From a virus: DNA of 64,000 nt. The stretch lies in the IMG/VR virus record IMGVR_UViG_3300045988_136739. The stretch is one strand, 5' to 3'. Within the stretch, counting starts at the first letter, position 1. Each line of letters begins with the position of its first letter. Shown here piece after piece: positions 21,551 to 37,644 of this stretch. A model generated the notes under the pieces. The model made no database searches. It saw only the letters and a list, made by a program, of their open reading frames with translations, and was not told the origin of the DNA. The translations under genes and the position numbers were made by a program.

Positions 21551-21597
21551 AACGCCGATACTGTCTTTAATGTGAAGAAAAGTCGGCGTTATTTATT
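21551..21597 (+). terminator. terminator hairpin aacgccga...tcggcgtt + T-rich tail
   Basis: 8-bp stem. Confidence 0.5.
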
Positions 21598-21599
21598 AA

Positions 21600-23027: not shown

Positions 23028-23042
23028 CAAAGCTAGAAAGTT
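23014..23042 (+). promoter_or_regulatory. promoter TTGACA-17-TATAAT
   Basis: consensus. Confidence 0.6.
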
Positions 23043-23075
23043 TTGATATAATAACTACAGAAACGGAGGGATAGG

Positions 23076-24089: not shown

Positions 24090-24105
24090 TTATAAGGAGA
24101 AAAAT

Positions 24106-25068: not shown

Positions 25069-25082
25069 AATCTAACGATTTA

Positions 25083-25110
25083 GCGTGGAGAAATCCACGC
25101 TTTTTATTTT
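25083..25110 (+). terminator. rho-independent terminator gcgtggagaaatccacgc + T-run
   Basis: identical hairpin to 1290. Confidence 0.7.
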
Positions 25111-25120
25111 GCAAAACCCC

Positions 25121-25149
25121 TTGACTTTTCCTAGCGTCTATGATATAAT
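25121..25149 (+). promoter_or_regulatory. AAAACCCCTTGACT-17-TATAAT class promoter
   Basis: consensus family. Confidence 0.65.
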
Positions 25150-25183
25150 AATGATGTCAAAGATGTTTGACAGGAGGGTTTAT

Positions 25184-26446
25184 ATGGACATTAAGATTGT
25201 GATTGGCGCACAGTATGGTGATGAGGGGAAAGGCAGAACTGTTGACTATTTCACTCGTGAATGCAAGAACGGCGATATGGCTGTTGTGCTCACAAATGGT
25301 GGAGCACAGCGAGGTCATACTGTTGTAAAAGGAGATAAGCGTCACATCTTTCATCATTTCGGTTCTGGAACTATGAACGGCGCTGATACTATTATCAGCG
25401 AAATTTTTCAGGTAAATCCTATGGTATTTTCTACGGAGTGGGATGAACTGCGTGAACTTGGTTTTACTCCGAATGTATATGTCGATGAAAACTGTTTCAT
25501 TGCTACACCTTGGGACGCTTTAATTAACCAGTGCTGGGAAACTGCGCTTGGAGACGGTCGTTTCGGTTCTTGCGGTCTTGGTGTCTATGAAGCCATTATC
25601 CGTAGCAAAGAGCCAAAATACGCAATTACTGTAAAAGAGATTCAGAAAGCGAACGAAGAGAATAACTGGATTCCGATTGCAGAAAAGTTGGATATTATTT
25701 GTATGGATTATGTTCCTGCACGTTTACATGAGGTTCTTGATGGCCGTGACATCCCGGAGCAGTTCGTTAGTAACTTTGAGAAAGATTACGTATTGTCTTT
25801 TTTGAGCGACTTGGCCTTCTTTATCAAACACGTTACGGTAAAAAAGTTTACTAAAACAGAGCTTAGTGCAAAATATAAGCGACTTGTGTTTGAAAACGCG
25901 CAGGGTCTTGCAATTTCGCAGAAATACTACGAGCAAGGTGAGAATACGACTCCGACATATACCGGGATTAGTTCAGATTTTGATGTTTTAGATGGTTTCG
26001 ATGTAAAGAGTATGGACGAGTTCGACATTGAGATTTGTTATACTACACGTTGGTATACAACTCGACATGGTGCTGGTATTCTTCCGGGCGAGACTGACGT
26101 AAATAATCTAAGCACAAAAATTATTGATAACACAAACGTACACAACGAATGGCAGGGTAGCATTAGATACGCCATGTTTGATGTTGACAGATTTGTTGGT
26201 CGCATTATGCGTGACCTGAGCGTGACACAATTTGTTGAAGGAGACTTCAACTTATCGTTTGCCATCAACGCTGTTGACCAGTGCGATAATAAGAAAATTC
26301 ATTATATCATGGATGGACGTGAAAGCGTGACTGGTGTAATTGATTTCGCAAACGTTATCTCTGAAAATTTCGCATCGTTACCGAATCTTATTTCTCGTTA
26401 TCTTGGTGCTGGTGAAGATGCTAGATATACTGCCAACTGTAAGTAA
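25184..26446 (+). CDS. purA: adenylosuccinate synthetase homolog (PurA-like, 420 aa)
   Basis: IVIGAQYGDEGKGRTVDYF P-loop, GGAQRGHTVV, GDKRHIFHHFGSG co-linear with PurA. Confidence 0.8.
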   Translation: MDIKIVIGAQYGDEGKGRTVDYFTRECKNGDMAVVLTNGGAQRGHTVVKGDKRHIFHHFGSGTMNGADTIISEIFQVNPMVFSTEWDELRELGFTPNVYVDENCFIATPWDALINQCWETALGDGRFGSCGLGVYEAIIRSKEPKYAITVKEIQKANEENNWIPIAEKLDIICMDYVPARLHEVLDGRDIPEQFVSNFEKDYVLSFLSDLAFFIKHVTVKKFTKTELSAKYKRLVFENAQGLAISQKYYEQGENTTPTYTGISSDFDVLDGFDVKSMDEFDIEICYTTRWYTTRHGAGILPGETDVNNLSTKIIDNTNVHNEWQGSIRYAMFDVDRFVGRIMRDLSVTQFVEGDFNLSFAINAVDQCDNKKIHYIMDGRESVTGVIDFANVISENFASLPNLISRYLGAGEDARYTANCK

Positions 26447-26458
26447 GGAGGTATAAAT

Positions 26459-27364
26459 ATGCAGGAGTTTGTTATGTTGGTTGGACTTCCGGCAAGCGGA
26501 AAGTCTACCGTAGCGAATGAGTATATGGGAAAGGGGTATCTCATCTTTAGTTCTGATGCGATTCGCAAGGAACTTTTTGGTGACGAAAATGACCAGACTG
26601 ACAATAATCTGGTATTTAATACTCTGCATAATCGCATTCGTACTGCAATGAAAGATGGTTTTAGTGTTGTATATGATGCAACGAATATCAATGCTAAACG
26701 GCGTGAAGGATTCTTACGCGAGATAGCGAAGGTAAACTGTCATAAGCATTGCGTCTTTATGGCTACTCCGTATTCCGTCTGCGTTATGCGCAATCAGAAG
26801 CGGGAGCGGAAAGTCCCCATGTCTGCTATGGAGCGTATGCGTAAGGGAATTGATATCCCGTACTACTTCGAGGGGTGGGACGAAATCACTGTTCGGCGTG
26901 TTAAGTTGGTAGCTCCGTATGAACCGTTTGACCTTGTTGACAGCCTTCTGAATTACAATCAGGAAAATCCGCATCACGAATTTACGCTTGGCGCACACAT
27001 GAAAGAGGCGTGGCGTTACGCAGTAAACGAGGAATACGATATGTATGTTCAGTGGGCTGCTCTTGTCCATGATATTGGTAAACCGGCCACTAAGACGTTT
27101 ACTAAAATGAATGGAACAACTGATGGAAGTGCACATTATTACAGTCATCAGAATGTTGGTGCGTATGATTCTTTGTTCTTGAACTATCCGAAAGAAATTA
27201 CGGACAAAGATAAACTGCATATTGCAGTTCTTATCAACTACCACATGATTCCCTATACATTTGGCAAGGGTAATATCGGAAAAGATAAGATGCGTGAACG
27301 TCTTGGAGACGAAATCTATAACGAGGTTATGCAAGTGCATAACTGTGATGTAAACGCACATTAA
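26459..27364 (+). CDS. polynucleotide 5'-kinase domain (T4 Pnk-like) fused to a C-terminal HD phosphohydrolase domain; putative RNA end-healing enzyme
   Basis: GLPASGKST, SSDAIRKEL, DATN co-linear with T4 Pnk kinase; HHEF...HDIGKP...H...D HD signature like CCA-enzyme HD domain. Confidence 0.7.
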   Translation: MQEFVMLVGLPASGKSTVANEYMGKGYLIFSSDAIRKELFGDENDQTDNNLVFNTLHNRIRTAMKDGFSVVYDATNINAKRREGFLREIAKVNCHKHCVFMATPYSVCVMRNQKRERKVPMSAMERMRKGIDIPYYFEGWDEITVRRVKLVAPYEPFDLVDSLLNYNQENPHHEFTLGAHMKEAWRYAVNEEYDMYVQWAALVHDIGKPATKTFTKMNGTTDGSAHYYSHQNVGAYDSLFLNYPKEITDKDKLHIAVLINYHMIPYTFGKGNIGKDKMRERLGDEIYNEVMQVHNCDVNAH

Positions 27365-27413
27365 AGAAATAACCGCCATTTGGCGGTTAAATACATATAA
27401 AAGAGGTTGAAAT

Positions 27414-28619
27414 ATGGCATTAACTTTCTATGATACCAATGCCTTGCTGAGTCTGCGTGAAAGCGCATTTGTTGAGAAATTTGCGTGTTCTCATAAAACG
27501 CTTGAGGAAATCGAGAACATTAAGACATCCGGCAAGAAAGACGATGAAACTAGGTATCGCGCAAGGAAAGTGGCACACGCTTTTCAGGATGGAAACAATT
27601 ACATCGTTTGCAACTACCCTTATGACAGAATTGTTAAGGAATTGGCCGCAAGAGGGCTTGAGGTAACTCCAGACGCAATTATTACAACAGAAGCATATCT
27701 GTTAAATTCTGAAACAGATGATGTCGTTTTTGTTACAGATGATGTAAATTGCTATAACATTGCGAAAAACATCTTTTGTCTAAAGACAGAGACTCTAAAT
27801 AGCATCAAAGAAGATATTTACGAGGGATATATTAAGATTAGCGGCACAACTGACGAAATCAATGAGCAGATGGACGTTATTGACATGTCGAAGTTGTATG
27901 CCAATGAATATATTGTAATTGACGATAAGTCGATTGGCAAAACGAAAGAAATGCGTTTTGATGGTAAAAAATTTGTTGAATTAAAGCTACCACCGTCTGG
28001 GTTTATTAAGGGCAAGAATAGTTTGCAAAGATGCGCGCTTGATGCTTTAAACAACAAGGATATTGACATTGTTGCAATTCTAGGAACGTATGGTTCTGGC
28101 AAGTCCTTCTTGTCTATGCAGATGGGATTGTATGGTGTAAATGAGAAAGGCTATCAGTCCAAAATTCTCGGTGTGCGCGAAGCGCGTGGCGAAGGTAGTG
28201 CAGTTGGTTACTTGCCCGGAGAGTTTGAGCAGAAAGTTGGTGACTTCTTTAAGCCTTTGGAGCAACAGCTAAAGGGCGGTGAGTTCGAGTTGCAGAGTCT
28301 AAAGCAGCGTGGTGTACTTGATGTTCAGATTCCTTATTATCTAAAAGGAACTACTTACGATAGTACCATTATGGTTGTTGACGAAGCAGAGGATTTAACG
28401 GAATCACAGTTGCGTTTGGTTGGCACACGTCTTGGTCAGAACTCGAGAATTTTCTTTTCTGGTGACTATAAGCAGTCTCTAATCAATAAAACTATTAGCA
28501 ATCCGCTCGTTAAGATGTGTGATGAATTTAAGGGTAGCCCTAATTTTGCTTGCGTATTTCTTGATACCGATGTTCGTAGTGAAGCATCTAAGATGTTTGC
28601 TACTTTGTTTAAACAGTAA
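27414..28619 (+). CDS. phoH: PIN-domain + PhoH-like ATPase (YlaK-like)
   Basis: N-terminal FYDTNALL PIN motif; GTYGSGKSF Walker A; VVDEAEDL; SGDYKQS. Confidence 0.8.
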   Translation: MALTFYDTNALLSLRESAFVEKFACSHKTLEEIENIKTSGKKDDETRYRARKVAHAFQDGNNYIVCNYPYDRIVKELAARGLEVTPDAIITTEAYLLNSETDDVVFVTDDVNCYNIAKNIFCLKTETLNSIKEDIYEGYIKISGTTDEINEQMDVIDMSKLYANEYIVIDDKSIGKTKEMRFDGKKFVELKLPPSGFIKGKNSLQRCALDALNNKDIDIVAILGTYGSGKSFLSMQMGLYGVNEKGYQSKILGVREARGEGSAVGYLPGEFEQKVGDFFKPLEQQLKGGEFELQSLKQRGVLDVQIPYYLKGTTYDSTIMVVDEAEDLTESQLRLVGTRLGQNSRIFFSGDYKQSLINKTISNPLVKMCDEFKGSPNFACVFLDTDVRSEASKMFATLFKQ

Positions 28620-28626
28620 TTGAATT

Positions 28627-28989
28627 ATGTATTTGCCTAATCATTTTGAAGCTATCGACAAGAGCGTTTTGAATGATAAGGCCAGATATAAAGAAGACTT
28701 TGGCGATATGTATAGTTTATTGCTGGGTCTTCTTTCTACATCTGGCATCTATCCGAAGCATTCTTTAGATTATAACAAGATAACACTGGAGTTTGACGTA
28801 GATAACCGTATGTTGCAGATTATGATTTCTGACTTGTATGGTATGTATACATACGTAAACTATAACTCCGTAAGTAACGTAGTTACGTTAAATCTAGCTA
28901 GTTGGACTACCTATGGTAAAATTTACCAGTTAGCCAACGCTATCTACGAATCCTACTTTAGATTGAAGAAAAATTCAAAAACCCCTTGA
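28627..28989 (+). CDS. hypothetical protein
   Basis: ORF. Confidence 0.45.
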   Translation: MYLPNHFEAIDKSVLNDKARYKEDFGDMYSLLLGLLSTSGIYPKHSLDYNKITLEFDVDNRMLQIMISDLYGMYTYVNYNSVSNVVTLNLASWTTYGKIYQLANAIYESYFRLKKNSKTP

Positions 28990-29014
28990 CTTTTCTGTTA
29001 AAATATGGTATTAT
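28986..29014 (+). promoter_or_regulatory. AAAACCCCTTGACT-17-TATTAT class promoter
   Basis: consensus family. Confidence 0.6.
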
Positions 29015-29055
29015 ATAGATGTTCCAAAAAATCTTGAATAAAAGGAGAATTGAGA

Positions 29056-29379
29056 ATGGTTGTTAAGGTCGATGAAGCAAAGAAAGCAAACAGAGTCGCG
29101 TATACTGAAACATGGTATCTCGATAACATTTCGTCAGTGAAATTTTATACACTCCCGACTGATGGTGAAGCTAATATGCCCATTATGGAAGTATACAGCC
29201 GTAGCGATAACACCATTGATGGAGTTGAGCCACTCAAGTATGTTATGGGTGAGAATCAGCAGAAGGTTACTCTTATGACTGATACTGGGCATATTATAGA
29301 AAAATTTGGGTACGAAGCTGTTTCTAATGGCTGGGCTGTTCACGATGGGGATGGAAGCCCGATTATGAAATCTAAGTAA
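29056..29379 (+). CDS. hypothetical protein
   Basis: ATG 29056 with AAAGGAG RBS. Confidence 0.5.
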   Translation: MVVKVDEAKKANRVAYTETWYLDNISSVKFYTLPTDGEANMPIMEVYSRSDNTIDGVEPLKYVMGENQQKVTLMTDTGHIIEKFGYEAVSNGWAVHDGDGSPIMKSK

Positions 29380-29398
29380 AAAATATTCTCTAAACCCC

Positions 29399-29427
29399 TT
29401 GACAAAATTACATTTTTATGGTAAAAT
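29399..29427 (+). promoter_or_regulatory. AAACCCCTTGACA-17-TAAAAT class promoter
   Basis: consensus family. Confidence 0.55.
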
Positions 29428-29482
29428 ATTGGTGTTCAAGGAGGTGCGAGAACCATAAGGAAAAACGGCTTTTTGACCGCTT

Positions 29483-29670
29483 TGATGAATTTTGGAGTTA
29501 GTGAAAAAGATGCAACCGATTTTGCTAATAAAGTCATCAATATGGGCGGTAAGGTAAGTTACGAAGGCGCTTATCATACTTGGGAAACCGAAATGATTAA
29601 GGCCGGAATCGCATCTACAAAAGATAAGATGGTTGCAAAAGATACAATCAGCAATAAATTATTTGGATAA
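29483..29670 (+). CDS. hypothetical small protein (start uncertain)
   Basis: ORF. Confidence 0.35.
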
Positions 29671-29685
29671 AAGGAGTATCTAATT

Positions 29686-31185
29686 ATGGCAAATTTTGCA
29701 AATGCAGTTCGTGAATCTGCACGAATGACTACTACCGCAAATGGAGCAAAGTGCTACAATACCACTGGTAGCAAGATGCTCGACCTGTTTTCTACCGCTG
29801 GCGGTATGCGCACTCGAATCAACGATGTTCGTGATGCGTTCTCTGCGGCATGGAACGAGAATCCTGAGCTGGCAATTAAGCTGGCTTTCTATTGTCGTGA
29901 CGTGAGAGGTGGACAGGGTGAACGTGACGTTGCACGTGAGATGCTTCGCTGGGTTGCAGAATATCATCCTTCTACTATGCGTAAGAATTTGAAGTTCTTA
30001 CCTGAGTATGGTCGCTGGGACGATATTTACGTCTTTGTTGGCACTAAGGTCGAGAATGACGTATGGCAGATGGTTCGTGAACAGTTTGCCGAGGACATCA
30101 AGAATGTTAATTCTGGCAAGTCCTGTTCTCTGATGGCTAAGTGGCTGAAGTCAGTCAACACCTCTTCTAAGAAGTCTGTTGAACTTGGTCGTTTGACTGC
30201 TCGTAAGCTGGGGCTGTCTTATATGCAGTACCAGAAAACTTTGGCTAAACTGCGTAAGTACATTAACGTGACCGAGGTTAATATGTCTGCAAACAAGTGG
30301 ACTGATATTAACTACGAGGCCGTCCCTTCTAAGGCAATGACCAACTATCGTAGCGCATTCGCTCGTCACGACCGCGAAGGATTTACCGACTATATCAACG
30401 CTGTTAAGGCTGGAGAAAAGACTATTAAATCTAACACTCTGTATCCTTATGACCTTGTGCATCGGTACATGGGCGGTGGTGGCATGGTTTCCTATCGTTC
30501 CGGTTACTACAACTGCGGTGGTCTGGCAGACAAGGAAGATGCTGTTGTTGAAGCACAGTGGAAGGCATTGCCCAACTACATTGATGGAAACCATAACGTG
30601 ATGGTTATGGCAGATACATCCGGTTCTATGCGCGGTCAGCCCATTGAGTCTGCGCTTGGTCTTGCAATGTATTTTGCAGAGCGCAATAGCGGCCCTTATA
30701 AGAATCTGTTTATGACCTTTAGTACCAATCCTTGTTATGTTACTCTGGATGAACAGAGTATGCTTGGCAATCTGAAGAAGGCCGCAAAAGCCAACTGGAT
30801 GGGTTCTACCAACCTTGAAGCAGCTTTTGTTAAGATTCTCAAGACTGCTACTGACAACCATCTGACCGATGATGAGTTGCCCAAGGCACTTGTTATTATC
30901 TCGGATATGCAGTTCAATAAGTCGTTGATTCAGGGGGACAACTACTTCGACTCTATGAAGAATATGTATGCCGCACATGGTTATACGCTCCCCCATGTCG
31001 TGTTCTGGTGCGTAAATGCTTGGGCTGGTTCTACTCACCACAATAACTATAACGACTATGTTACTGCATTTAGCGGTAATGCCGCAAGCACTTTCCGTGA
31101 TGTTCTCGGAACTATCGGTTATAATGCTTACGAGGCTATGCTGAAGGTTCTGAATGGTGAGCGTTATGCGCAGATTCATGCCTAA
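29686..31185 (+). CDS. TROVE/Ro60-like protein with C-terminal vWA domain
   Basis: 499 aa; N-terminal LDLFSTAGGMR (Ro60-like LxxGxxGG), C-terminal VMVMADTSGSM MIDAS; architecture of Ro60/Rsr. Confidence 0.5.
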   Translation: MANFANAVRESARMTTTANGAKCYNTTGSKMLDLFSTAGGMRTRINDVRDAFSAAWNENPELAIKLAFYCRDVRGGQGERDVAREMLRWVAEYHPSTMRKNLKFLPEYGRWDDIYVFVGTKVENDVWQMVREQFAEDIKNVNSGKSCSLMAKWLKSVNTSSKKSVELGRLTARKLGLSYMQYQKTLAKLRKYINVTEVNMSANKWTDINYEAVPSKAMTNYRSAFARHDREGFTDYINAVKAGEKTIKSNTLYPYDLVHRYMGGGGMVSYRSGYYNCGGLADKEDAVVEAQWKALPNYIDGNHNVMVMADTSGSMRGQPIESALGLAMYFAERNSGPYKNLFMTFSTNPCYVTLDEQSMLGNLKKAAKANWMGSTNLEAAFVKILKTATDNHLTDDELPKALVIISDMQFNKSLIQGDNYFDSMKNMYAAHGYTLPHVVFWCVNAWAGSTHHNNYNDYVTAFSGNAASTFRDVLGTIGYNAYEAMLKVLNGERYAQIHA

Positions 31186-31195
31186 TGTTTGACTA

Positions 31196-31228
31196 AACGG
31201 TGGCAATGCCGCCACCGTTAATTTTTAA
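31196..31228 (+). terminator. terminator hairpin aacggtggcaatgccgccaccgtt
   Basis: 10-bp stem, A/T tail. Confidence 0.45.
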
Positions 31229-31243
31229 TCTAAAGGAGAAAGT

Positions 31244-32776
31244 ATGGTTAATCTTTTAGCATTTGTTCCTATTGTCGCAATTATCGCTGTAATTGCATTG
31301 ATTGTTATTGTTTTTAAGTCTTGCTATAAGAAAGCACCGCCTAATAAAGCGATGGTCATTACTGGGCCGTCTGGTAGCAAGACTGTTCATGGCAAGGCTT
31401 GTTTCGTCATTCCGCTGATTCAGCGTGTTGATTATATGTCCTTGGAGAATATTCAGGTAGACTTTACGTCTCGTGATGAGATTCCCACTAAGGACGCTAT
31501 CAATATCAATGTTGATGCGGTTGCTAATATGGCCATTGACACCGACCCGGAGCGTATGGCGGTTGCCGCATCTAAGTTTCTTGGATATTCTATCGCAGAC
31601 ATCCAGACGATTGTTCAGCCTATTTTGGAAGGTAACATCCGCGAAATTATTTCTCAGACTACTCTGAAGGAACTGATTCAGGGAGACAAGAAACAGTTTG
31701 CTGAGAAGGTCATGGAGAATGTCGCCCCAAACCTCGCAGACCTCGGTTTGAAGCTGACTACGTTTAACATCCAGAACTTTAAGGATAGAAACGGTGTGAT
31801 TGAGAATCTGGGCATTGAGAATACTGTCCAGATTTCCAAGGACGCTAAGAAAGCACAGGCACAGGCAAAGGCTGAAATTGCCATTGCAGAAGCAGAAAGC
31901 GCACGTGCCGCAAATGAAGCACAGGTTGTAGCCGATGCTGAAATCGCTCAGAAGCAGAACGAACTGGCTATTAAGAAAGCACAGTTGAAGAAGGTAACAG
32001 AAGTTGAACAGGCTCGTGCCGATGCCGCTCGTGGAATTGAAGCAGAAGAGCAGCGTAAGGCGCAGGAAATTGCAACTGCAAACGCCAACCTTGCTCGTCA
32101 GGAAAAGGAAATTGAACTGAAGGAACGTGAGGTTGCCATTAAGGAAAAGTCTCTGGAGGCAGAGGTTAAAAAGACCGCAGAAGCAAAGCGTTACGCAGAC
32201 CAGCAGGCCGCAGATGCGCATTTGTATACTGTACAGCGTCAGTCCGAGGCTTCACTGTTCGACCGTCAGAAGAAGGCAGAAGCAGAGAAGGTTGAGGCTA
32301 CCCAGAGGGCGGAAGCTGAAAAGATTACCTCTGAGGCAAAGCGTATTGCCGCAGAAAACGAAGCCGCTGGTATCAAGGCAAAAGGCGTTGCAGAAGCAGA
32401 AGCTATTCGCGCAAAGGCACTGGCAGAAGCAGAAGGTACTCTGAAAAAGGCAGAAGCTATGCGTGAGTACGGCGATGCCGCAACTATGGACATGAAGCTG
32501 GCTGTTGCCAAGGCTTATATCGACAAGTTGCCTGATATTGCCGCCGCAGTTGCCGCGCCTATGGCAAATATTGGCAATATCACTATGTATGGCGAGGGTA
32601 ACACCGCAAAGCTGACTGGTGACGTTACCAAGACCATGAAGCAGATTACCGATGGCTTTACTGATGCTACTGGTTTCAACCCTATGATGCTGTTGTCTGG
32701 CGTTCTGGGTGGTAAGCTGGCCGCATCCAACAGCGGTTCTACCGTAAACGTCCATGTTGACGGTGATAATCAGTAA
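31244..32776 (+). CDS. flotillin-like SPFH/band-7 protein with N-terminal TM helix and long EA-repeat coiled coil
   Basis: TM helix, SPFH core, about 200 aa of AEAEA/KAQAQAKAE repeats typical of flotillins. Confidence 0.65.
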   Translation: MVNLLAFVPIVAIIAVIALIVIVFKSCYKKAPPNKAMVITGPSGSKTVHGKACFVIPLIQRVDYMSLENIQVDFTSRDEIPTKDAININVDAVANMAIDTDPERMAVAASKFLGYSIADIQTIVQPILEGNIREIISQTTLKELIQGDKKQFAEKVMENVAPNLADLGLKLTTFNIQNFKDRNGVIENLGIENTVQISKDAKKAQAQAKAEIAIAEAESARAANEAQVVADAEIAQKQNELAIKKAQLKKVTEVEQARADAARGIEAEEQRKAQEIATANANLARQEKEIELKEREVAIKEKSLEAEVKKTAEAKRYADQQAADAHLYTVQRQSEASLFDRQKKAEAEKVEATQRAEAEKITSEAKRIAAENEAAGIKAKGVAEAEAIRAKALAEAEGTLKKAEAMREYGDAATMDMKLAVAKAYIDKLPDIAAAVAAPMANIGNITMYGEGNTAKLTGDVTKTMKQITDGFTDATGFNPMMLLSGVLGGKLAASNSGSTVNVHVDGDNQ

Positions 32777-32796
32777 TCATTCTCTTTTAGATTCTT

Positions 32797-32820
32797 GCAG
32801 GGTGTATGCCCTGCTTTTAT
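32797..32820 (+). terminator. rho-independent terminator gcagggtgtatgccctgc + TTTTAT
   Basis: hairpin + T-run. Confidence 0.6.
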
Positions 32821-32916
32821 ATGGGGTATTAGTCTAACTGGATAAAACATCACTCTCCTAAAGTGAATTTCTCCGTTCGAGTCGGGGATGCCCCACCAAA
32901 ATTTTTTCAAAACCAC

Positions 32917-32945
32917 TTGACAAATCGCAAAAAGTATGATAGAAT
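32917..32945 (+). promoter_or_regulatory. AAAACCACTTGACA-17-TAGAAT class promoter
   Basis: consensus family. Confidence 0.6.
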
Positions 32946-32983
32946 ATAGGTGTTCCAAGGGGAACAGAAAGAAGGTATATTAC

Positions 32984-33196
32984 ATGAAATGTGACGCTGT
33001 AAAAGTACACGAGTCGATTCCTATGACACCGAAACGTCTTTATGAGTGGGCTGTTGCAAACGGGGTACAGGATTGCCAGATGTATTTCCCAGCAGATGAG
33101 TTTATGACCGATGTTGACTTGACAATGGATTGTATGTGCAAAGAATATCGTGGTTTTGGTAAGAACAAGGAAATGGTAGTTAATATCTGTAGGTGA
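32984..33196 (+). CDS. hypothetical small Cys-rich protein
   Basis: ATG 32984 with GAAAGAAGG RBS. Confidence 0.45.
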   Translation: MKCDAVKVHESIPMTPKRLYEWAVANGVQDCQMYFPADEFMTDVDLTMDCMCKEYRGFGKNKEMVVNICR

Positions 33197-33203
33197 TTGT
33201 ACG

Positions 33204-33497
33204 ATGGTTTTTGTCTATGAGCTGAAATACGTTGATAAACGCAAATTAGTTCCAGTCACAGAGAGTCCGAAGATGAGGACAATCGCTACGGTGATTAACA
33301 AAGTCACTGGAAACGATGTTAAACGTCTGTATAATCGATTGAAGCGAAGTGGCAATATGCCACAGATGGAGCATCTAAAAGATGGGAACTACCGTGTTAT
33401 GTATATGGCACTGCCTAATGGGTTGAAGTTTGACCCATTCTATAAAGGTGGAACATATTACAGAGGAAGGAGCGTATTTGACCGTGATGACACTTGA
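33204..33497 (+). CDS. hypothetical protein
   Basis: ORF. Confidence 0.45.
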   Translation: MVFVYELKYVDKRKLVPVTESPKMRTIATVINKVTGNDVKRLYNRLKRSGNMPQMEHLKDGNYRVMYMALPNGLKFDPFYKGGTYYRGRSVFDRDDT

Positions 33498-34272
33498 TGA
33501 TAGAATGAAAACTTATTATGAGGGTGCATATCGTGTTTATCTGACGCGGCGTATGCCAGTCATTATCCGAATCGACTCTCGTGCTGGGCATACTTTCACA
33601 AAGAGTCTGAAGAAGCCTTTTGACGTAGTTTTCACTTCAACAATGCAGGATACAATGAAGTATCTGTGTGAAAACATTCAAGGCTGCGTTATCGGCTATA
33701 CACAGTCTGACGAGATTACTTTGTGTCTTGTTGATTATGACAAGCTGGAAACCGATGCTTGGTTTGGTTATAATCTAAACAAGCTGGTAAGTCTTACTGC
33801 ATCAATGGCTACGTTAGCATTTAATAAGTATTTTGAACGCAATGCTAATAGAACCCTCACCAAGATGGCATTGTCCTCTGGTGTGAATAAGTTTGAAATT
33901 GACGCTTACTCTGCTACATTGGCAAAGTGTAAAGAAAAGGGTTTGTGCTTCGATTCTCGCGCCTTTAATATCCCAAAGGAAGAGGTATGTAACTGTTTCT
34001 TATGGAGACAGCTTGACGCTTCTCGAAACAGTATTCAGGCGGTCGGTCAGGCAAACTTCTCGCATACTGTTCTGAATGGCAAGAGTACGTCTGAAATTCA
34101 GGATATGTTGATGACAGAAAAGGGTATCAACTGGAACGACCTTGCGACTGAATTAAAACGTGGCTCTTGCTGTGTACGAGATGGTAATGGCTGGTCTATT
34201 GACCACGAGATTCCCAAGTTTACTGGCGAAGGCCGTGACTATATTGATAAGCTGGTTTTTGTTGGAGAATAA
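33487..34272 (+). CDS. Thg1-like protein (tRNA-His guanylyltransferase family; 3'-5' nucleotidyltransferase / tRNA 5'-end repair)
   Basis: VIIRIDSRAGHTFTK (Thg1 VRIDGRxFHxF motif) and GYTQSDEITL (catalytic SDE) motifs. Confidence 0.8.
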   Translation: MTLDDRMKTYYEGAYRVYLTRRMPVIIRIDSRAGHTFTKSLKKPFDVVFTSTMQDTMKYLCENIQGCVIGYTQSDEITLCLVDYDKLETDAWFGYNLNKLVSLTASMATLAFNKYFERNANRTLTKMALSSGVNKFEIDAYSATLAKCKEKGLCFDSRAFNIPKEEVCNCFLWRQLDASRNSIQAVGQANFSHTVLNGKSTSEIQDMLMTEKGINWNDLATELKRGSCCVRDGNGWSIDHEIPKFTGEGRDYIDKLVFVGE

Positions 34273-34273
34273 A

Positions 34274-34474
34274 ATGCCTAAATATAGTTTTGATTTTAGG
34301 TACGCATACGGAAGTTGGACATTATGTAATTTGCGTTATGAGCATTATGACATTGATGCCCCTTCTGAAAAGGAAGCATTTAAAATCGCAGAAAAACAGT
34401 TCAATGAAACGCATAAATCTGCAATATGTGACCTCTATCGTGATAGTGATGGATGGCATAAACTTCTTTGGTGA
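34274..34474 (+). CDS. hypothetical small protein
   Basis: ATG immediately after upstream TAA. Confidence 0.4.
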   Translation: MPKYSFDFRYAYGSWTLCNLRYEHYDIDAPSEKEAFKIAEKQFNETHKSAICDLYRDSDGWHKLLW

Positions 34475-34749
34475 GTATGAACATTAACATTCCGTTTTCT
34501 TGCGGCGATGTTGTGTACGCTGTAAGACCTAAAAATATGTATAACAAGGAAGCCTATATTTATAAAGGCATTGTTATTTATATTAAAGTCGAGGTTGACC
34601 GTGACAATAAAGCTAAAATTATGGCGCACGTTCGTGACCTCGATGAGACTTTAAGCGTACCTAACATTATCTATCAGAACAGTGACAGTATCTACGCCAC
34701 TCTGGATGAAGCTAGGTCAGCTAATCCAGATGTTCTGATAAAAATTTAA
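34468..34749 (+). CDS. hypothetical small protein
   Basis: ORF. Confidence 0.4.
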   Translation: MVSMNINIPFSCGDVVYAVRPKNMYNKEAYIYKGIVIYIKVEVDRDNKAKIMAHVRDLDETLSVPNIIYQNSDSIYATLDEARSANPDVLIKI

Positions 34750-34768
34750 AAAATTTTTCCAAAACCCC

Positions 34769-34797
34769 TTGACAAATGACGAAAAATTTGATATAAT
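34769..34797 (+). promoter_or_regulatory. AAAACCCCTTGACA-17-TATAAT promoter driving the tRNA cluster
   Basis: perfect consensus 35 nt before first tRNA. Confidence 0.7.
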
Positions 34798-34832
34798 AAG
34801 GGTGTCAAGAGGAACGAAAGTTCCTCAAATAT

Positions 34833-34905
34833 ACGTTGGTAGTTTAACGGTAAAACAATGGCCTCCAAAGCCAGAAGATGATGGGTTCAAATCCCTCCCG
34901 GCGTG
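34833..34905 (+). tRNA. tRNA-Trp (anticodon CCA)
   Basis: hand-folded cloverleaf: acceptor acgttgg/ccggcgt (2 GU), D-stem gttt/aaac, anticodon loop ctCCAaa; weak T-stem. Confidence 0.55.
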
Positions 34906-34912
34906 TTTATAT

Positions 34913-34987
34913 GCGCTTATCGTTCAATGGATAGGACAAAACTCTTCTAAAGTTTTTATGTGGGTTCAATTCCTACTAGGCGTACCA
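34913..34987 (+). tRNA. tRNA-Arg (anticodon TCT), CCA encoded
   Basis: acceptor gcgctta/taggcgt, anticodon stem aaact/agttt, loop ctTCTaa, T-arm gtggg-ttcaatt-cctac. Confidence 0.75.
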
Positions 34988-34988
34988 C

Positions 34989-35074
34989 AGACGCATACAG
35001 CAATCCATAAATTTTAATGGTTTAAAAAGAATGCTTAAAACAATCTTTCACGGTTCGATTCCGTTCTGCGTCTA
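34989..35074 (+). tRNA. aberrant tRNA-like gene (perfect 7-bp acceptor agacgca/tgcgtct, T-arm, anticodon-like hairpin with loop ctTAAaa) with non-canonical spacing
   Basis: 86 nt; D-arm-like ccat-aaatttta-atgg displaced by extra nucleotides. Confidence 0.3.
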
Positions 35075-35151
35075 ATTTTTAGTTATTCTTCATCTTTATC
35101 TGAACTCGATAGACACGAACAGCAACACTTTCTTTGTTCGCGCCACTAATT

Positions 35152-35223
35152 GCGAATATAGTTTAGATGGTTAGAACGCCACACCAAAATGTGGAGACGT
35201 GGGTTCGAGTCCCACTTATAGTT
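35152..35223 (+). tRNA. tRNA-like element with canonical D-arm and T-arm but 6-nt anticodon loop and poorly paired acceptor (possible pseudo-tRNA)
   Basis: tagtttagatggttagaac D-arm, gtggg-ttcgagt-cccac T-arm, ccaca-ccaaaa-tgtgg. Confidence 0.3.
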
Positions 35224-35234
35224 GTGTCTAATAT

Positions 35235-35307
35235 GCCCGGTTAGTCAAGTTGGCTAAGACGAGTGACTCTCAATCACTAGGCGGCAGTTCAATCCTGCCA
35301 CCGGGTA
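35235..35307 (+). tRNA. tRNA-Glu (anticodon CTC)
   Basis: acceptor gcccggt/accgggt, anticodon stem agtga/tcact, loop ctCTCaa, T-arm ggcag-ttcaatc-ctgcc. Confidence 0.7.
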
Positions 35308-35313
35308 CTTTAT

Positions 35314-35345
35314 GGTCGAGTAGCTCAGTTGGTTAGAGCAGTAGA
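35314..35345 (+). pseudogene. 5' tRNA fragment (acceptor strand + perfect D-arm tagctcagttggttagagc) lacking a 3' half
   Basis: no matching ctcgacc acceptor strand found downstream; abuts endonuclease gene. Confidence 0.45.
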
Positions 35346-35376
35346 TAAATGGGGTATGAATATGGTAAATTCAAAG

Positions 35377-36114
35377 ATGAAAGGCAATATTGCAGAGTCG
35401 CGTATTTTATATGAATTTGTTTAGAGAGGAATACCAGTTTCAATACCTTACGGCGATAATGAACGCTATGATATGATAGCGGAATTTAATGGAAAGCTGA
35501 ATAAGATACAGATAAAGTTCTGCAATCAACAAATAGTTGATGGTTCGATAAGCTGTCCATGTTCTAATATAGTAAATCCATTAACAAAAAGTAAGCATAG
35601 AGAATTATATGTTAATGATGTTGATTATATGGCATTTTACATATATGTATGGGATGTTGCTGTTATAATTCCAACAAGTTACATAGGGAATAGGATTCAG
35701 ATAAAGATTAGAAAAGAACGTGCAAAGAACAATCAAACTACAGCTTCTACATTTGTTGATGACTTTACTTTTGATAAAATTGTTGGAGTAGATGTTCGTA
35801 ATGTGATAGAAGAACAACAAAATGTATATGAAAAAGCATATAATAGATGTGTTGATTGCGGATGTGCCATATCGGATAGGGCTGTGAGATGTTTAAGGTG
35901 TAGAAATTTGAAGCAATATGAAGAAACAGCAAATCCGAATATGATAGATAGAGACACGCTTAAATCCATGATTAGAAATATGCCATTTAAGCATATCGCA
36001 TCTATATGTGGAGTTTCAGATAACTGTATTAGAAATTGGTGTAAAAGATATAATCTTCCATATCGTACATCTGACATTAAGAAATATACAGATGACGAGT
36101 GGAGTGATGTATAA
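35377..36114 (+). CDS. putative PD-(D/E)XK-type (Hjc-like) endonuclease with C-terminal Cys cluster/HTH, possible homing endonuclease; in-frame TAG at 35422-35424
   Basis: N-terminal domain GNIAESRILYEFV-[TAG]-RGIPVSIPYGDNERYDMIAEFNGKLNKIQIK continuous across the TAG; CVDCGC...CLRC; inserted inside tRNA cluster. Confidence 0.5.
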
Positions 36115-36222
36115 TTTTTAGCTAATTACAAAAACAATATCCTACTGACATAATAATACCCATTTTTTCGGTTTGGATAACAGCGCATAGCCATAAAAGT
36201 CTAGGATTATTGGATAAGCTAA

Positions 36223-36251
36223 CAATGACTGCTGGAAAGACAGCAATTTAT
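36223..36251 (+). repeat. 25-nt exact repeat atgactgctggaaagacagcaatttat (hairpin tgctg-gaaaga-cagca) immediately upstream of a tRNA; second copy at 37843-37870
   Basis: identical sequence before tRNA-Arg(ACG) and tRNA-Ile(GAT). Confidence 0.6.
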
Positions 36252-36253
36252 AT

Positions 36254-36330
36254 GCGGCAGTAGTTCAACTGGATAGAACAATCGGCTACGAACCGATAGG
36301 TTGCGAGTTCGAGTCTTGTCTGTCGTACCA
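36254..36330 (+). tRNA. tRNA-Arg (anticodon ACG), CCA encoded
   Basis: acceptor gcggcag/ctgtcgt (2 GU), D gttc/gaac, anticodon stem atcgg/ccgat, loop ctACGaa. Confidence 0.8.
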
Positions 36331-36452
36331 GATAAGTGAGTCTTAAATTACGTTGGACAAAGGGTAGCCTTTTATGGGAGACTGTTACGACAGTAACCCC
36401 GATTATCGGTGACAATGCTAACTCATAAGAGTGCGTAAGCCGACATTTATAT

Positions 36453-36538
36453 GTGTATGTATCCGAATTGGCATAGGAGCTGCTTTGAGATGGCAGTGTC
36501 GCAAGACATTGTGGGTTCAAGTCCCACCATGCACACCA
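36453..36538 (+). tRNA. tRNA-Leu (anticodon GAG), type II with long variable arm, CCA encoded
   Basis: acceptor gtgtatg/catgcac, loop ttGAGat, variable hairpin tgtc-gcaa-gaca, T-arm gtggg-ttcaagt-cccac. Confidence 0.7.
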
Positions 36539-36541
36539 GAA

Positions 36542-36662
36542 TACAGTATGGTTTCAATGGTAAAACATCACCCAAATAAGAATGTGTCTATATAGACATA
36601 AGCCGCAATTATTTTTCTTAAAAGCCAAGGTGAAGATGTCGGTTCGACCCCGACTGCTGTAT
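36542..36662 (+). ncRNA. tRNA-like gene with about 50-nt expansion of the anticodon loop
   Basis: acceptor tacagta/tgctgta, D-arm gttt-caatggta-aaac, anticodon-type stem tcacc/ggtga enclosing a 56-nt loop with the palindrome tgtctatatagaca, perfect T-arm gtcgg-ttcgacc-ccgac. Confidence 0.4.
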
Positions 36663-36669
36663 TTATTAT

Positions 36670-36745
36670 GCGAGATTAACTCAACTGGAAGAGTGCCACT
36701 CTTACAAAGTGGAAGGTACAAGTTCGAGTCTTGTATTTCGCACCA
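36670..36745 (+). tRNA. tRNA-Val (anticodon TAC), CCA encoded
   Basis: acceptor gcgagat/atttcgc, D actc/gagt, stem ccact/agtgg, loop ctTACaa, T-arm acaag-ttcgagt-cttgt. Confidence 0.8.
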
Positions 36746-36833
36746 TACGACAGTTTATAAGCAAAACAAGTTCTGTCGGTGATAAGACAAAAGACTTAAT
36801 TGGCGGTTGAGTGACCTTAAACTCACCATTATG

Positions 36834-36949
36834 GCTGTGTAGCTCAATAGGCTAGAGCGCGTAAAACCTATCTATTTTAGATAGTAACAGCTACACATTT
36901 TTCCATTATAAGGACGAGGTTTATGGTTCGAGTCCATACGCAGCCACCA
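36834..36949 (+). ncRNA. tRNA-like gene (acceptor, D-arm, T-arm, CCA) with about 40-nt insertion in the anticodon/variable region
   Basis: acceptor ggctgtg/cgcagcc, D-arm tagctcaataggctagagc, T-arm tatgg-ttcgagt-ccata, internal hairpin ctatc-tatttta-gatag; no canonical anticodon arm. Confidence 0.4.
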
Positions 36950-36970
36950 AAAATCTAAAAAAGAAGGGAA

Positions 36971-37243
36971 ATGAATCCGATGCAGTAGATTGATAATAAT
37001 AATCCTATGGTTTTCTTTCAAATGTTGGGTGAAGTTGCCGGTGATAACATCATGAGCAAGATTTCCCGACTAAAGATTAGTGAAGAAAATGGAATTGTTA
37101 CTTTATATCTAAGAGATGAACGTGAACCGTTTAACGATAGTGAACTTAGACAGCTAAGATACATCTTAGAAAGATGGTATGATATAATTTCTTTTAGGCG
37201 TGAAGATAGGCTTACTATGTTAGATATGAAGGTAAGAAAATAA
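36971..37243 (+). CDS. small hypothetical protein with in-frame TAG at 36986-36988
   Basis: AGAAGGG RBS + ATG 36971, 5 codons, TAG, then continuous with ORF 37007..37243. Confidence 0.35.
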
Positions 37244-37341
37244 CCCTCCTTTATTTTTATATATAAAAAGACACATCCAGCAAACTTTTATTAAATTTTG
37301 AGTAGCCTTATGATTCAATTTTTAATGTGTCTTTTAGATTT

Positions 37342-37429
37342 GCCAGTGTAGTTCAGTTGGTAGAACGCGGGTTTTGTAATCCCGATGCCGAAAGGGTTCT
37401 CGCAGGTTCAAGTCCTGTCACTGGCTCCA
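37342..37429 (+). tRNA. tRNA with long variable arm; anticodon ambiguous (TGT or GTA within ttttgtaat loop)
   Basis: perfect acceptor gccagtg/cactggc, D gttc/gaac, 4-bp anticodon stem cggg/cccg, 17-nt variable arm, T-arm gcagg-ttcaagt-cctgt, CCA. Confidence 0.55.
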
Positions 37430-37430
37430 T

Positions 37431-37506
37431 GCCACTTTAATTCAGTAGATAGAATGATGCGTTCGTACCGCATACGTCGTAGGTTTAATTCCTACAGGTG
37501 GCTCCA
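37431..37506 (+). tRNA. tRNA-Thr (anticodon CGT), CCA encoded
   Basis: acceptor gccactt/aggtggc, stem atgcg/cgcat, loop ttCGTac, T-arm gtagg-tttaatt-cctac. Confidence 0.75.
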
Positions 37507-37644
37507 ATCGCACCTATACCGTGGTAGAATAGGTATAGGCAAGTATTTTAACTACCGTGTCCATAGAGTTAATGGACTTGGGAGGTACTGACAAGACAGA
37601 AGAGCAAGTACCATGCACGTGGGCGGGTATTCGTGCTTTCATTT

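What the first reader, a model, noticed from the sequence alone, without database searches (positions are those of the whole stretch)
36542..36949. Two tRNA-like genes with about 40-50 nt expansions of the anticodon region, plus other aberrant tRNA-like elements
Elements 36542-36662 and 36834-36949 each have a well-paired 7-bp acceptor stem, a textbook D-arm, a perfect T-arm and (the second) an encoded CCA. Each is about 117-120 nt because a hairpin-containing block (tgtctatatagaca / ctatc-tatttta-gatag) replaces the 7-nt anticodon loop. The first retains an anticodon-type stem (tcacc/ggtga) closing a 56-nt loop. Two further elements (34989-35074, 35152-35223) have canonical arms but a non-canonical loop or spacing. 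These could be tRNA mimics, degenerate tRNAs or, given the nearby Ro60-like gene (bacterial Ro60 partners, the Y RNAs, are tRNA-like), ligands of that protein. They are also the obvious places to look for a non-standard suppressor.
Basis: seen in the sequence. Interest (0 to 1): 0.6.

Follow-up and report, generated by a model that had tools for sequence, protein, structure and literature searches.

The report
tRNA-embedded partner RNAs of phage Ro60
The two over-long tRNA-like genes are tRNA bodies carrying a conserved hairpin-plus-ACAGCAA module that, across hundreds of unrelated phages, is found next to a Ro60-like RNA-binding protein gene, so they are most likely that protein's partner RNAs (a new, tRNA-embedded form of Y RNA) and not broken tRNAs or suppressors.

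Summary
36542-36662 (E1) and 36833-36949 (E2) have full acceptor, D and T arms plus a 40-56 nt block in the anticodon arm.

One correction: in E2 the block splits the 5' strand of the anticodon stem, and a normal 7-nt loop (AUUAUAA, anticodon UAU) survives. E1 looks like tRNA-Gly(GCC).

The block is a conserved module: a hairpin, two nucleotides, then single-stranded ACAGCAA (GCCGCAA in E1).

- The same unit, "helix strand GRCRC-NN-ACAGCAA", sits in E3 (34989-35073) and around E4 (35110-35230), where the helix joins the RNA's two ends, as in YrlA Y RNAs.
- In 68 of 69 phage loci chosen only by protein similarity, and in six cultured phages of six host genera, this unit lies on the same strand beside a DUF2828/vWA gene.
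- The window's copy of that gene (29686-31185) is predicted to have the Ro60 fold.
- About half of those loci carry the unit inside a tRNA-shaped gene.

Best reading: Y-RNA-like ligands of the phage Ro60 homologue, displaying a tRNA body and anticodon loop. Binding and function are inferred. A spliced-intron reading is not excluded. I found no support for a suppressor.

The parts
36542..36662 (+). E1: a tRNA-shaped RNA resembling tRNA-Gly(GCC). It has an intact 5-bp anticodon-type stem (36568-36572 / 36629-36633) closing a 56-nt loop that holds the module. The loop ends in AAGCCAA, with A rather than U before the GCC triplet.
   Evidence: compensatory changes in three stems among relatives
36584..36608 (+). 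E1 module core: hairpin GTGTCT-ATAT-AGACAT (36584-36599), then AA, then the box variant GCCGCAA (36602-36608). It is flanked by a possible closing helix AAATAA (36574-36579) / TTATTT (36609-36614).
   Evidence: (model R1, 14.2 bits, third-best hit in the window)
36833..36949 (+). E2: a tRNA-shaped RNA that reads as tRNA-Ile(UAU) if the block is ignored, with encoded CCA. The block 36863-36902 interrupts the 5' strand of the anticodon stem. The lower stem, loop and 3' strand are CC-ATTATAA-GGACG (36903-36916).
   Evidence: (Rfam tRNA 44.6 bits)
36868..36893 (+). E2 module core: hairpin CTATC-TATTTTA-GATAG (36868-36884), then TA, then the box ACAGCTA (36887-36893).
   Evidence: (model R1, 19.8 bits, E about 0.01, best hit in the window)
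34989..35073 (+). E3: a Y-RNA-like RNA. Terminal helix AGACGCA/TGCGTCT; T then the box ACAGCAA (34997-35003) directly after the 5' strand; hairpin 35005-35020; anticodon-arm-like hairpin GAATG-CTTAAAA-CAATC (35029-35045); T arm 35050-35064.
   Evidence: second-best R1 hit; z = -2.8
35110..35230 (+). E4 with its flanks: terminal helix TAGACAC/GTGTCTA enclosing GA-ACAGCAA (box 35119-35125) and the tRNA-like domain 35152-35223. That domain has an arm with a 6-nt loop and a T arm. The layout is YrlA-like.
   Evidence: Rfam tRNA 43.6 bits for the inner part; the minimum-energy fold closes the terminal helix
29686..31185 (+). Gene for the DUF2828 + DUF7788/vWA protein, predicted to have the Ro60 fold (TROVE ring plus vWA). 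It is the inferred protein partner.
   Evidence: (PHROG 850, 'RNA-binding protein')
36226..36251 (+). Tentative: a 26-nt repeat TGACTGCTGGAAAGACAGCAATTTAT containing the box, in the 5' leader of tRNA-Arg(ACG). An identical copy lies at 37844-37869 before tRNA-Ile(GAT).
   Evidence: weak R1 hits; could be an ordinary duplication

Best explanation
E1 and E2 are non-coding partner RNAs of the phage's Ro60-like protein, and so, in a different layout, are E3 and E4. They are a tRNA-embedded form of Y RNA.

Proposed mechanism:
1. They are transcribed with the tRNA cluster and, having ordinary tRNA ends, are probably trimmed like tRNAs.
2. They fold into the tRNA L-shape.
3. The module grafted into the anticodon arm (a short helix followed by two nucleotides and single-stranded ACAGCAA) is the docking site for the ring-shaped Ro60-like protein encoded at 29686-31185.
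4. The resulting particle displays a tRNA body and an anticodon loop. This is analogous to bacterial YrlA, whose tRNA-like domain is thought to tether Ro60 to other factors.
5. The likely purpose is to couple the protein to tRNA-binding machinery, or to act as bait during infection.

Shown here: the module, its structure and covariation, its strand-specific linkage to Ro60-like genes across phages, and the predicted Ro60 fold of the protein.

Inferred: physical binding, stability of the unspliced RNA, and the downstream function.
For: 1. Same motif in all four aberrant elements of the window: helix strand, then 1-2 nt, then ACAGCAA / ACAGCTA / GCCGCAA.

2. Linkage.
- A homologue of the window protein 29686-31185 lies in 35 of 55 unrelated loci that carry module-bearing tRNAs. 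No other window protein exceeds 2 of 55.
- Controls: 3 of 95 loci without the module and 0 of 74 Thg1 loci.
- The module RNAs are mostly 100-1400 nt upstream of the gene on the same strand.

3. Strand-specific enrichment. There are 120 sense and 0 antisense boxes in the 500 nt upstream of 69 such genes.

4. A sample seeded only by the protein:
- 68 of 69 loci have a sense box.
- 257 sense boxes against 57 antisense.
- 37 boxes lie inside tRNA-shaped genes, in 33 loci.
- 129 are stand-alone with a perfect 7-bp closing helix.

5. Structure.
- Stand-alone units have a perfect 7-bp helix in 87 of 128 cases, against 14-20 of 128 in three controls, with many pair types per position.
- The embedded hairpin shows 69 double-change cells against 18.4 in shuffles.
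- A covariance model built without the window or its relatives ranks E2, E3 and E1 as the top three hits in the window.

6. Cultured phages chosen by protein similarity alone all carry 2-6 such units within 3 kb on the same strand: E. coli VpaE1, Listeria A511, Enterococcus EfsSzw-1, Staphylococcus BESEP2, Bacillus FADO and Mycobacterium LeBron. In LeBron, one unit is the 5' end of a sub-threshold Rfam YrlA match.

7. Protein fold. The AlphaFold model has pLDDT 89. Its best PDB matches are Ro60/TROVE over the full length: 2i91_A with TM 0.61, and 9kop, a phage Ro60.

8. Precedent.
- Ro60 homologues with adjacent Y-like RNAs are known in bacteria and phages (PMC4201824, PMC12135203).
- A Ro60-like protein of phage Bas63 sits beside a tRNA cluster, and its authors guessed that some of those tRNAs are Y RNAs (PMC11482910).
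Against: - No binding or expression data exist.
- In this window the RNAs lie 3.8-5.8 kb from the protein gene, not adjacent to it. No unit lies next to the gene itself.
- The Rfam YrlA model does not match any of the four elements. The box differs from the published GNCGAA/CGAA Ro-binding motif.
- Removing the block in silico restores a perfect anticodon arm in 53 of 103 elements. That is also what an intron would look like.
- E1's box is a variant with two substitutions, and its model score is weak (14.2 bits, E about 0.3).
- Part of the data set was collected with box-containing search patterns. The protein-seeded sample and the cultured phages are free of that bias.
Confidence: 0.75

Rival explanations
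1. They are intron-containing tRNA genes: tRNA-Ile(UAU) and a tRNA-Gly. The 40-56 nt block would be a new kind of short, protein-dependent intron that is cut out and the halves re-joined, for example by the phage RNA ligase. The Ro60-like protein would act as a maturation cofactor. The mature products would decode.
For: - Removing the block restores a perfect 5-bp stem and a 7-nt loop with U33 and a purine at 37 in 53 of 103 elements, covering at least 19 anticodons.
- The tRNA bodies are canonical, and E2 encodes CCA.
- The window encodes an RNA ligase and a Thg1-like enzyme.
- Unexplained introns have been reported in Lak megaphage tRNAs (PMC6784885).
Against: - The same helix-box unit is common as a stand-alone RNA with no exons (129 in the unbiased sample). 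So the unit functions in its own right.
- E1-type (Gly-like) elements have A, not U, before the anticodon after any simple excision, and this holds in at least six independent examples.
- There is no group I core and no known ribozyme.
- The position, at nucleotides 28-30 or 32/33, is not the canonical 37/38.
- RNA ligase is not linked to the module (1 of 55 loci).
- Module anticodons neither avoid nor favour ordinary tRNAs in the same locus (8 of 31).
Confidence: 0.17
2. They are decaying pseudo-tRNAs that picked up junk insertions, like the neighbouring tRNA-Phe that a homing endonuclease gene has destroyed. They would have no function.
For: - The cluster does contain a tRNA-Phe whose 3' 45 nt were replaced by a 770-nt endonuclease cassette.
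- E1 escapes the Rfam tRNA model.
- In two relatives E1 has a C-A mismatch in the anticodon-type stem.
Against: - Three stems of E1 carry compensatory changes.
- The inserted block is more conserved than the tRNA stems.
- The same module, with covarying helices, recurs in hundreds of unrelated contigs and in cultured phages.
Confidence: 0.03
3. The conserved sequence acts at the DNA level, for example as a promoter, a recombination site or a homing site inside tRNA genes, and not as RNA.
For: The stretch (T)TGACAGCAA followed about 17 nt later by a TAxxAA-like anticodon loop superficially resembles -35 and -10 promoter elements in some members (reading of sequences).
Against: - Helices next to the box covary, with all four Watson-Crick pair types at several positions.
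- The helix partner can lie upstream or downstream while the local RNA geometry is kept.
- GCAA is invariant, which a promoter model does not explain.
- The -10-like element is simply the anticodon loop.
Confidence: 0.03

Closest known systems
YrlA-type bacterial and phage Y RNAs (Rfam RF02553; Chen et al. 2014, PMC4201824)
   Same: - Small RNAs encoded on the same strand near a Ro60-family gene.
- They contain a tRNA-like domain with D and T arms.
- A helix with an adjacent short conserved single-stranded motif is the presumed protein-binding site, and it projects from the place of the anticodon stem.
- E3 and E4-with-flanks share the layout in which the 5' and 3' ends form the terminal helix.
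- In phage LeBron a box unit coincides with a sub-threshold YrlA match.
   Different: - E1 and E2 are not permuted. Their ends are at the acceptor stem (E2 with CCA), the binding helix is a local hairpin inserted into the anticodon arm, and an anticodon loop is kept.
- The motif is ACAGCAA, not GNCGAAN0-1G.
- The Rfam YrlA model does not match.
- The protein partner belongs to Pfam DUF2828/DUF7788, not to the TROVE family by sequence.
phiRo60 with Yrl1/Yrl2 of Thermus phage phiLo (PMC12135203; PDB 9kop)
   Same: A phage-encoded Ro60 homologue whose partner RNAs are encoded just upstream of its gene. 9kop is the top structural match of the window protein.
   Different: Yrl1 and Yrl2 are stem-bulge-stem RNAs with a CGAA motif and are not embedded in tRNAs. 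Binding and a PNPase complex were shown there; nothing is shown here.
Ro60-like gp130 of E. coli phage Bas63, which counters the Ppl defence system (PMC11482910)
   Same: A Ro60-fold protein next to a phage tRNA cluster. The authors guessed that some neighbouring tRNA genes are Y RNAs. The related Felix O1-like phage VpaE1 has three helix-ACAGCAA units between its tRNA genes.
   Different: No RNA partner or motif was identified there. In VpaE1 the units I found are stand-alone, not inside tRNA genes.
'Enigmatic' tRNA introns of Lak megaphages (PMC6784885)
   Same: Phage tRNA genes that are too long for bacterial tRNA finders because of an intervening block in the anticodon region.
   Different: Lak blocks are about 93 nt, lie after position 37, and contain a T-arm-like hairpin, with no hairpin-ACAGCAA module. 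Similar T-arm-bearing inserts appeared in my scan (L089, L118, L146) and form a separate class.

Membership tests
Canonical decoding tRNA (Rfam RF00005) | Cloverleaf with a 7-bp acceptor stem, D arm and T arm | tested here: met
   Direct reading, ARAGORN structures and minimum-energy fold of E1.
Canonical decoding tRNA (Rfam RF00005) | Score at or above the Rfam gathering threshold | tested here: inconclusive
   E2 scores 44.6 bits against 29, with a 51-nt insertion. E1 gives no hit even at E<=10.
Canonical decoding tRNA (Rfam RF00005) | Contiguous 5-bp anticodon stem closing a 7-nt loop with U33 | tested here: not met
   In E2 the stem is split by a 40-nt block. In E1 the loop is 56 nt and the base before GCC is A.
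Canonical decoding tRNA (Rfam RF00005) | Aminoacylation and use in translation | not testable with these tools
   Needs charging assays or ribosome-associated RNA sequencing.
Y RNA / YrlA (Rfam RF02553) | Encoded near a Ro60-family gene, on the same strand | tested here: met
   In the window: same strand, 3.8-5.8 kb away. In the family: mostly within 1.5 kb, 68 of 69 protein-seeded loci.
Y RNA / YrlA (Rfam RF02553) | Partner protein has the Ro60 fold (TROVE ring plus vWA) | tested here: met
   AlphaFold model pLDDT 89, pTM 0.89. Foldseek top hits are 9kop, 2i91_A and human Ro60. No Pfam TROVE hit by sequence.
Y RNA / YrlA (Rfam RF02553) | Match to the YrlA covariance model | tested here: not met
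   No YrlA hit in 32500-39000 at E<=10. LeBron's RNA reaches 39.8 bits against a threshold of 69.
Y RNA / YrlA (Rfam RF02553) | Terminal 5'/3' helix with the GNCGAAN0-1G (CGAA) motif | tested here: not met
   E1 and E2 use a local hairpin. The motif is ACAGCAA/GCCGCAA. E3 and E4-with-flanks do have a terminal helix, but with ACAGCAA.
Y RNA / YrlA (Rfam RF02553) | tRNA-like domain with D and T arms | tested here: met
Y RNA / YrlA (Rfam RF02553) | Physical binding to the Ro60 protein | not testable with these tools
   Needs RIP, CLIP or gel-shift assays.
Group I tRNA intron | Catalytic core (P3-P9), usually 200 nt or more, inserted in the anticodon loop | tested here: not met
   Blocks are 40-56 nt. 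No Rfam intron or ribozyme hit at E<=10. Most inserts lie in the stem.
Archaeal/eukaryal protein-spliced tRNA intron | Bulge-helix-bulge motif or position 37/38, and a splicing endonuclease | tested here: not met
   Inserts lie after nucleotide 28/29, or at 31-33. I saw no bulge-helix-bulge motif by eye. No endonuclease of that family appeared among the window proteins I scanned; I did not scan all ORFs.

The most novel reading that the evidence does not exclude
Phage Ro60-like proteins use a family of box-bearing RNAs to display anticodon stem-loops or whole tRNA bodies. The resulting particles would act as decoys or adaptors against host immunity that senses or cuts tRNAs or nucleic acids; the Bas63 homologue, for example, counters Ppl. 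The tRNA-embedded forms would then be chimeras that are both tRNA-like substrates (end-processed, possibly charged) and Ro60 ligands. That would be a new class of viral counter-defence RNA-protein particle.
Probability: 0.3. Interest if true: 0.85.

Novelty: new variant of a known kind. Interest (0 to 1): 0.7.

Why it matters
- It gives a sequence-and-structure signature, helix-NN-ACAGCAA, for the RNA partners of a very large phage protein family: 710 records among sequenced phages and more than 7000 database proteins. That family's RNA ligands were largely unannotated.
- It explains a class of over-long phage "tRNA" genes that standard tools miss or mislabel.
- It shows that Y-RNA-like function can be grafted onto an unpermuted tRNA with an intact anticodon loop.
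- The unit occurs in tractable phages (Felix O1-like coliphages, Listeria A511, Bacillus FADO, mycobacteriophage LeBron), and one homologue already has an anti-defence phenotype. The biology of phage Ro60 particles is therefore directly testable.

Tried and rejected
- Known RNA families. Rfam at gathering and permissive thresholds returned only tRNA hits. There was no YrlA, ribozyme, riboswitch or group I hit.
- ARAGORN's anticodon calls for E1 (Gly ACC) and E2 (Glu TTC). I rejected them because family-wide comparison places the true loop at the 3' end of the block.
- A tmRNA-like tag reading frame from ACAGCAA to the TAA. The distance varies from 15 to 18 nt and the phase is not kept (reading of sequences).
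- Pairing of ACAGCAA with the acceptor stem or the hairpin loop. It is not conserved across members.
- An internal promoter. Rejected because of RNA-level covariation.
- Linkage to RNA ligase, the Thg1-like enzyme or PIN-PhoH. Each occurs in at most 2 of 55 loci.
- Stop-codon recoding or a suppressor. Treating TAG as sense does not merge genes, and no suppressor anticodon is present.
- Searches of the sequenced-phage collection with the E1/E2 DNA found only ordinary tRNA matches.
- The genome-contig scan was mostly chance hits. The real ones were on Lachnospiraceae/Clostridia metagenome-assembled contigs.
- A search for an anticodon-arm mimic downstream of every box was confounded by T arms. 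I report it only qualitatively.
- The test of overlap between module anticodons and ordinary tRNAs was uninformative.

Full report
**What is there**

The window is part of a roughly 150-kb phage genome from human-gut metagenomes. It has no close match among sequenced phages. Six near-identical IMG/VR contigs (L001-L006) share the locus.

A same-strand tRNA cluster spans 32823-38362.

E2 also encodes CCA. ARAGORN calls both only when introns are allowed. The Rfam tRNA model scores E2 at 44.6 bits with a 51-nt insertion and misses E1.

Among the six relatives, E1 shows compensatory double changes in the acceptor, anticodon-type and T stems. Its internal hairpin keeps its stem while the loop varies. 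The elements are therefore real and under selection as RNA.

**Anatomy**

A structure-based pattern (D arm, 50-80 nt, T loop) scanned over viral contigs returned many tRNA-shaped genes with perfect acceptor stems and inserts of about 40-55 nt. A large subset shares E2's insert: an A-rich start, a variable hairpin, (A)ACAGCAA, then a T-rich stretch.

Comparison showed that a normal 7-nt anticodon loop and the 3' strand of the anticodon stem follow the insert. The insert sits inside the 5' strand of the stem, mostly after nucleotide 28 or 29.

- E2 reads GAGC-G-CG(T)[block](T)CC-ATTATAA-GGACG. Without the block it would be a tRNA-Ile(UAU).
- E1 belongs to a Gly-like subclass. The 5-bp stem is intact, a pyrimidine follows it, then the module, then AA-GCC-AA. 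In every example of this subclass the base before the anticodon is A, not U. I cannot explain that.

A second scan (ACAGCAA, 22-48 nt, T loop) brought the total to 103 distinct elements with at least 19 anticodons. Many loci carry 2-5 of them.

**The decisive link**

I ran tblastn with every window ORF against 55 unrelated loci that carry module-bearing tRNAs. One protein stood out: the DUF2828 + DUF7788/vWA protein at 29686-31185, with a homologue in 35 of 55 loci. Every other window protein scored at most 2 of 55, including RNA ligase, the Thg1-like enzyme and PIN-PhoH. Controls gave 3 of 95 loci without the module and 0 of 74 Thg1 loci.

The module-bearing tRNAs lie mostly 100-1400 nt upstream of that gene on the same strand. 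The box ACAGC[AT]A occurs 120 times on the sense strand and 0 times on the antisense strand in the 500 nt upstream of 69 such genes.

The extended consensus is R-G-R-C-R-C-N-N-ACAGCAA.

Most copies are not in tRNAs. They are stand-alone units of about 50-70 nt in which GRCRC is the 5' strand of a helix closed by a complementary strand downstream.

- The helix is a perfect 7 bp in 87 of 128 units, against 14-20 of 128 in three controls.
- Helix positions 4-7 each show AU, UA, GC and CG pairs.

In the tRNA-embedded form the partner strand lies upstream, forming a local hairpin. A perfect 6-mer partner is found upstream in 47-55 of 90 elements, against 5-16 downstream. The local geometry (helix, two nucleotides, single-stranded ACAGCAA) is the same in both forms.

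On an alignment of 29 embedded hairpins the helix shows 69 double-change cells against 18.4 in shuffles. The members were pre-selected for pairing, so the percentage paired is not informative.

A covariance model built from those 29 sequences, none from the window or its relatives, ranks E2 (19.8 bits), E3 (14.7 bits) and E1 (14.2 bits) as the top three hits in both strands of the 64-kb window.

**The other two elements**

- E3 is AGACGCA-T-ACAGCAA ... TGCGTCT. Its "acceptor stem" is the box-associated helix.
- E4 is the tRNA-like core of a longer RNA, TAGACAC-GA-ACAGCAA ... [35152-35223] ... GTGTCTA.

Both have the YrlA-like layout: a terminal helix plus motif enclosing a tRNA-like domain. 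E4's anticodon-like loop is 6 nt here and 7 nt in relative L005. It is therefore not a decoding loop.

**Checks free of search-pattern bias**

Six cultured phages chosen only by protein similarity all carry 2-6 helix-box units within 3 kb on the same strand: E. coli VpaE1, Listeria A511, Enterococcus EfsSzw-1, Staphylococcus BESEP2, Bacillus FADO and Mycobacterium LeBron. In VpaE1 and FADO the units lie among the tRNA genes. In LeBron one unit (GGACTC-TA-GCAGCAA ... GAGTCC) is the 5' end of a sub-threshold Rfam YrlA match.

In 69 non-redundant loci seeded by the protein alone:

- 68 have a sense-strand box.
- There are 257 sense boxes against 57 antisense. My arithmetic gives a chance expectation of about 48 per strand.
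- 37 boxes lie inside tRNA-shaped genes, in 33 loci.

**The protein**

Pfam finds DUF2828, DUF7788 and weak vWA matches, but no TROVE match. PHROGs calls it an RNA-binding protein.

An AlphaFold2 model from 43 homologues has pLDDT 89 and pTM 0.89. Its best PDB matches, over the full length, are Ro60/TROVE structures: 9kop (the phage phiLo Ro60), 2i91_A (Xenopus Ro60, TM 0.61) and human Ro60.

**Interpretation**

Ro60 proteins work with Y RNAs encoded beside them. Bacterial YrlA RNAs carry a tRNA-like domain, with the Ro-binding helix standing where the anticodon stem would be (PMC4201824). A phage Ro60 binds two Y-like RNAs encoded upstream of its gene (PMC12135203).

The elements here fit that logic, with a different motif and, for E1 and E2, a different topology. 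They are ordinary, unpermuted tRNA bodies with the protein-binding unit grafted into the anticodon arm and the anticodon loop retained.

I conclude, with confidence of about 0.75, that E1-E4 are partner RNAs of the Ro60-like protein.

Function is inferred. By analogy with YrlA, the tRNA part would tether the protein to tRNA-binding factors. Alternatively, the displayed anticodon loops could serve as bait. Many stand-alone units contain small hairpins with anticodon-like 7-nt loops such as CUUUUAA or CUGUUAA. I saw this but could not quantify it cleanly. The Ro60-like gp130 of phage Bas63 counters the Ppl defence system (PMC11482910), which points to an anti-defence role.

**Rivals**

- Spliced intron. 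This remains possible, about 0.17, and is not strictly exclusive of the main reading. Removing the block restores a perfect anticodon arm in 53 of 103 elements. Against it: the unit is abundant without any exons, the E1 type lacks U33, no ribozyme or splicing enzyme is evident, and RNA ligase is not linked.
- Pseudo-tRNA and DNA-signal readings are contradicted by the covariation.
- Suppressor. I found no support. The triplets are UAU and GCC, and the window reads well in the standard code.

**Novelty**

Phage Ro60 homologues and Y-like RNAs are known. In the papers I could search, I found no description of the ACAGCAA box, the arrays of stand-alone units, or the tRNA-embedded form. The nearest statement is the Bas63 authors' guess that some neighbouring tRNAs might be Y RNAs.

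I rate this a new variant of a known kind.

Noticed in passing
window 35323-36115: tRNA-Phe(GAA) is truncated. Its 3' 45 nt, intact in L001-L003, are replaced by a 770-nt cassette (35346-36115) encoding a PD-(D/E)XK endonuclease with a helix-turn-helix domain (Pfam PDDEXK_5). It looks like a free-standing homing endonuclease that landed in the anticodon loop. L004-L006 carry the same insertion.
   Followed up: partly
window 35422-35424: An in-frame TAG at codon 23 of the endonuclease reading frame (35356-36114) is conserved in all four genomes that carry the cassette. TAG ends only 1 of 51 long ORFs (TAA 33, TGA 17). Treating TAG as sense does not merge genes elsewhere. It could be a pseudogene, regulated read-through, or a downstream start at 35473.
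   Followed up: partly
window 37342-37429: tRNA-Thr(UGU) is 88 nt because of a 15-nt extra arm in the variable region (ATGCCGAAAGGGTTCT), which is unusual for a Thr tRNA. In L003, L004 and L006 the tRNA-Lys(UUU) is likewise 88 nt instead of 77.
   Followed up: no
window 36226-36251 and 37844-37869: An identical 26-nt repeat TGACTGCTGGAAAGACAGCAATTTAT, containing the ACAGCAA box, lies immediately upstream of tRNA-Arg(ACG) and tRNA-Ile(GAT). Boxes in tRNA 5' leaders were also seen 9 times in other phages.
   Followed up: partly
window 20414-34272: RNA-metabolism genes lie upstream of the tRNA cluster: an RNA ligase with an N-terminal OB domain (20414-21535), PIN+PhoH (27414-28619), the Ro60-like gene, an SPFH/flotillin protein directly after it (31244-32776), and a Thg1-like 3'-5' nucleotidyltransferase (33430-34272). 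165 relatives of the Thg1-like gene exist in viral contigs; in the 74 distant ones fetched (of the best 80), it has almost no tRNA genes within 8 kb (4 tRNAs in 3 loci).
   Followed up: partly
L089, L118, L146 (also L090-type, L098-type, L128-type loci): Other, apparently distinct classes of 35-75 nt inserts occur in the anticodon region of phage tRNA-shaped genes with perfect acceptor stems. Some contain an internal T-arm-like hairpin (GGTTCAACTCC and similar), reminiscent of the Lak megaphage tRNA 'introns'.
   Followed up: no
L434 4713-5489 (E. coli phage VpaE1), L435 2702-2965 (Listeria A511), L437 4529-4736 (Staphylococcus BESEP2): Unannotated helix-NN-ACAGCAA units lie in the gaps between annotated genes or tRNAs next to the Ro60-like gene of well-studied cultured phages. 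They look like unrecognised small RNA genes.
   Followed up: partly
L193 versus L101: Two near-identical module-bearing tRNAs differ by one base in the anticodon loop (TTTGTAA versus TTTGAAA). This changes the displayed triplet from UGU to UGA while everything else is kept.
   Followed up: no
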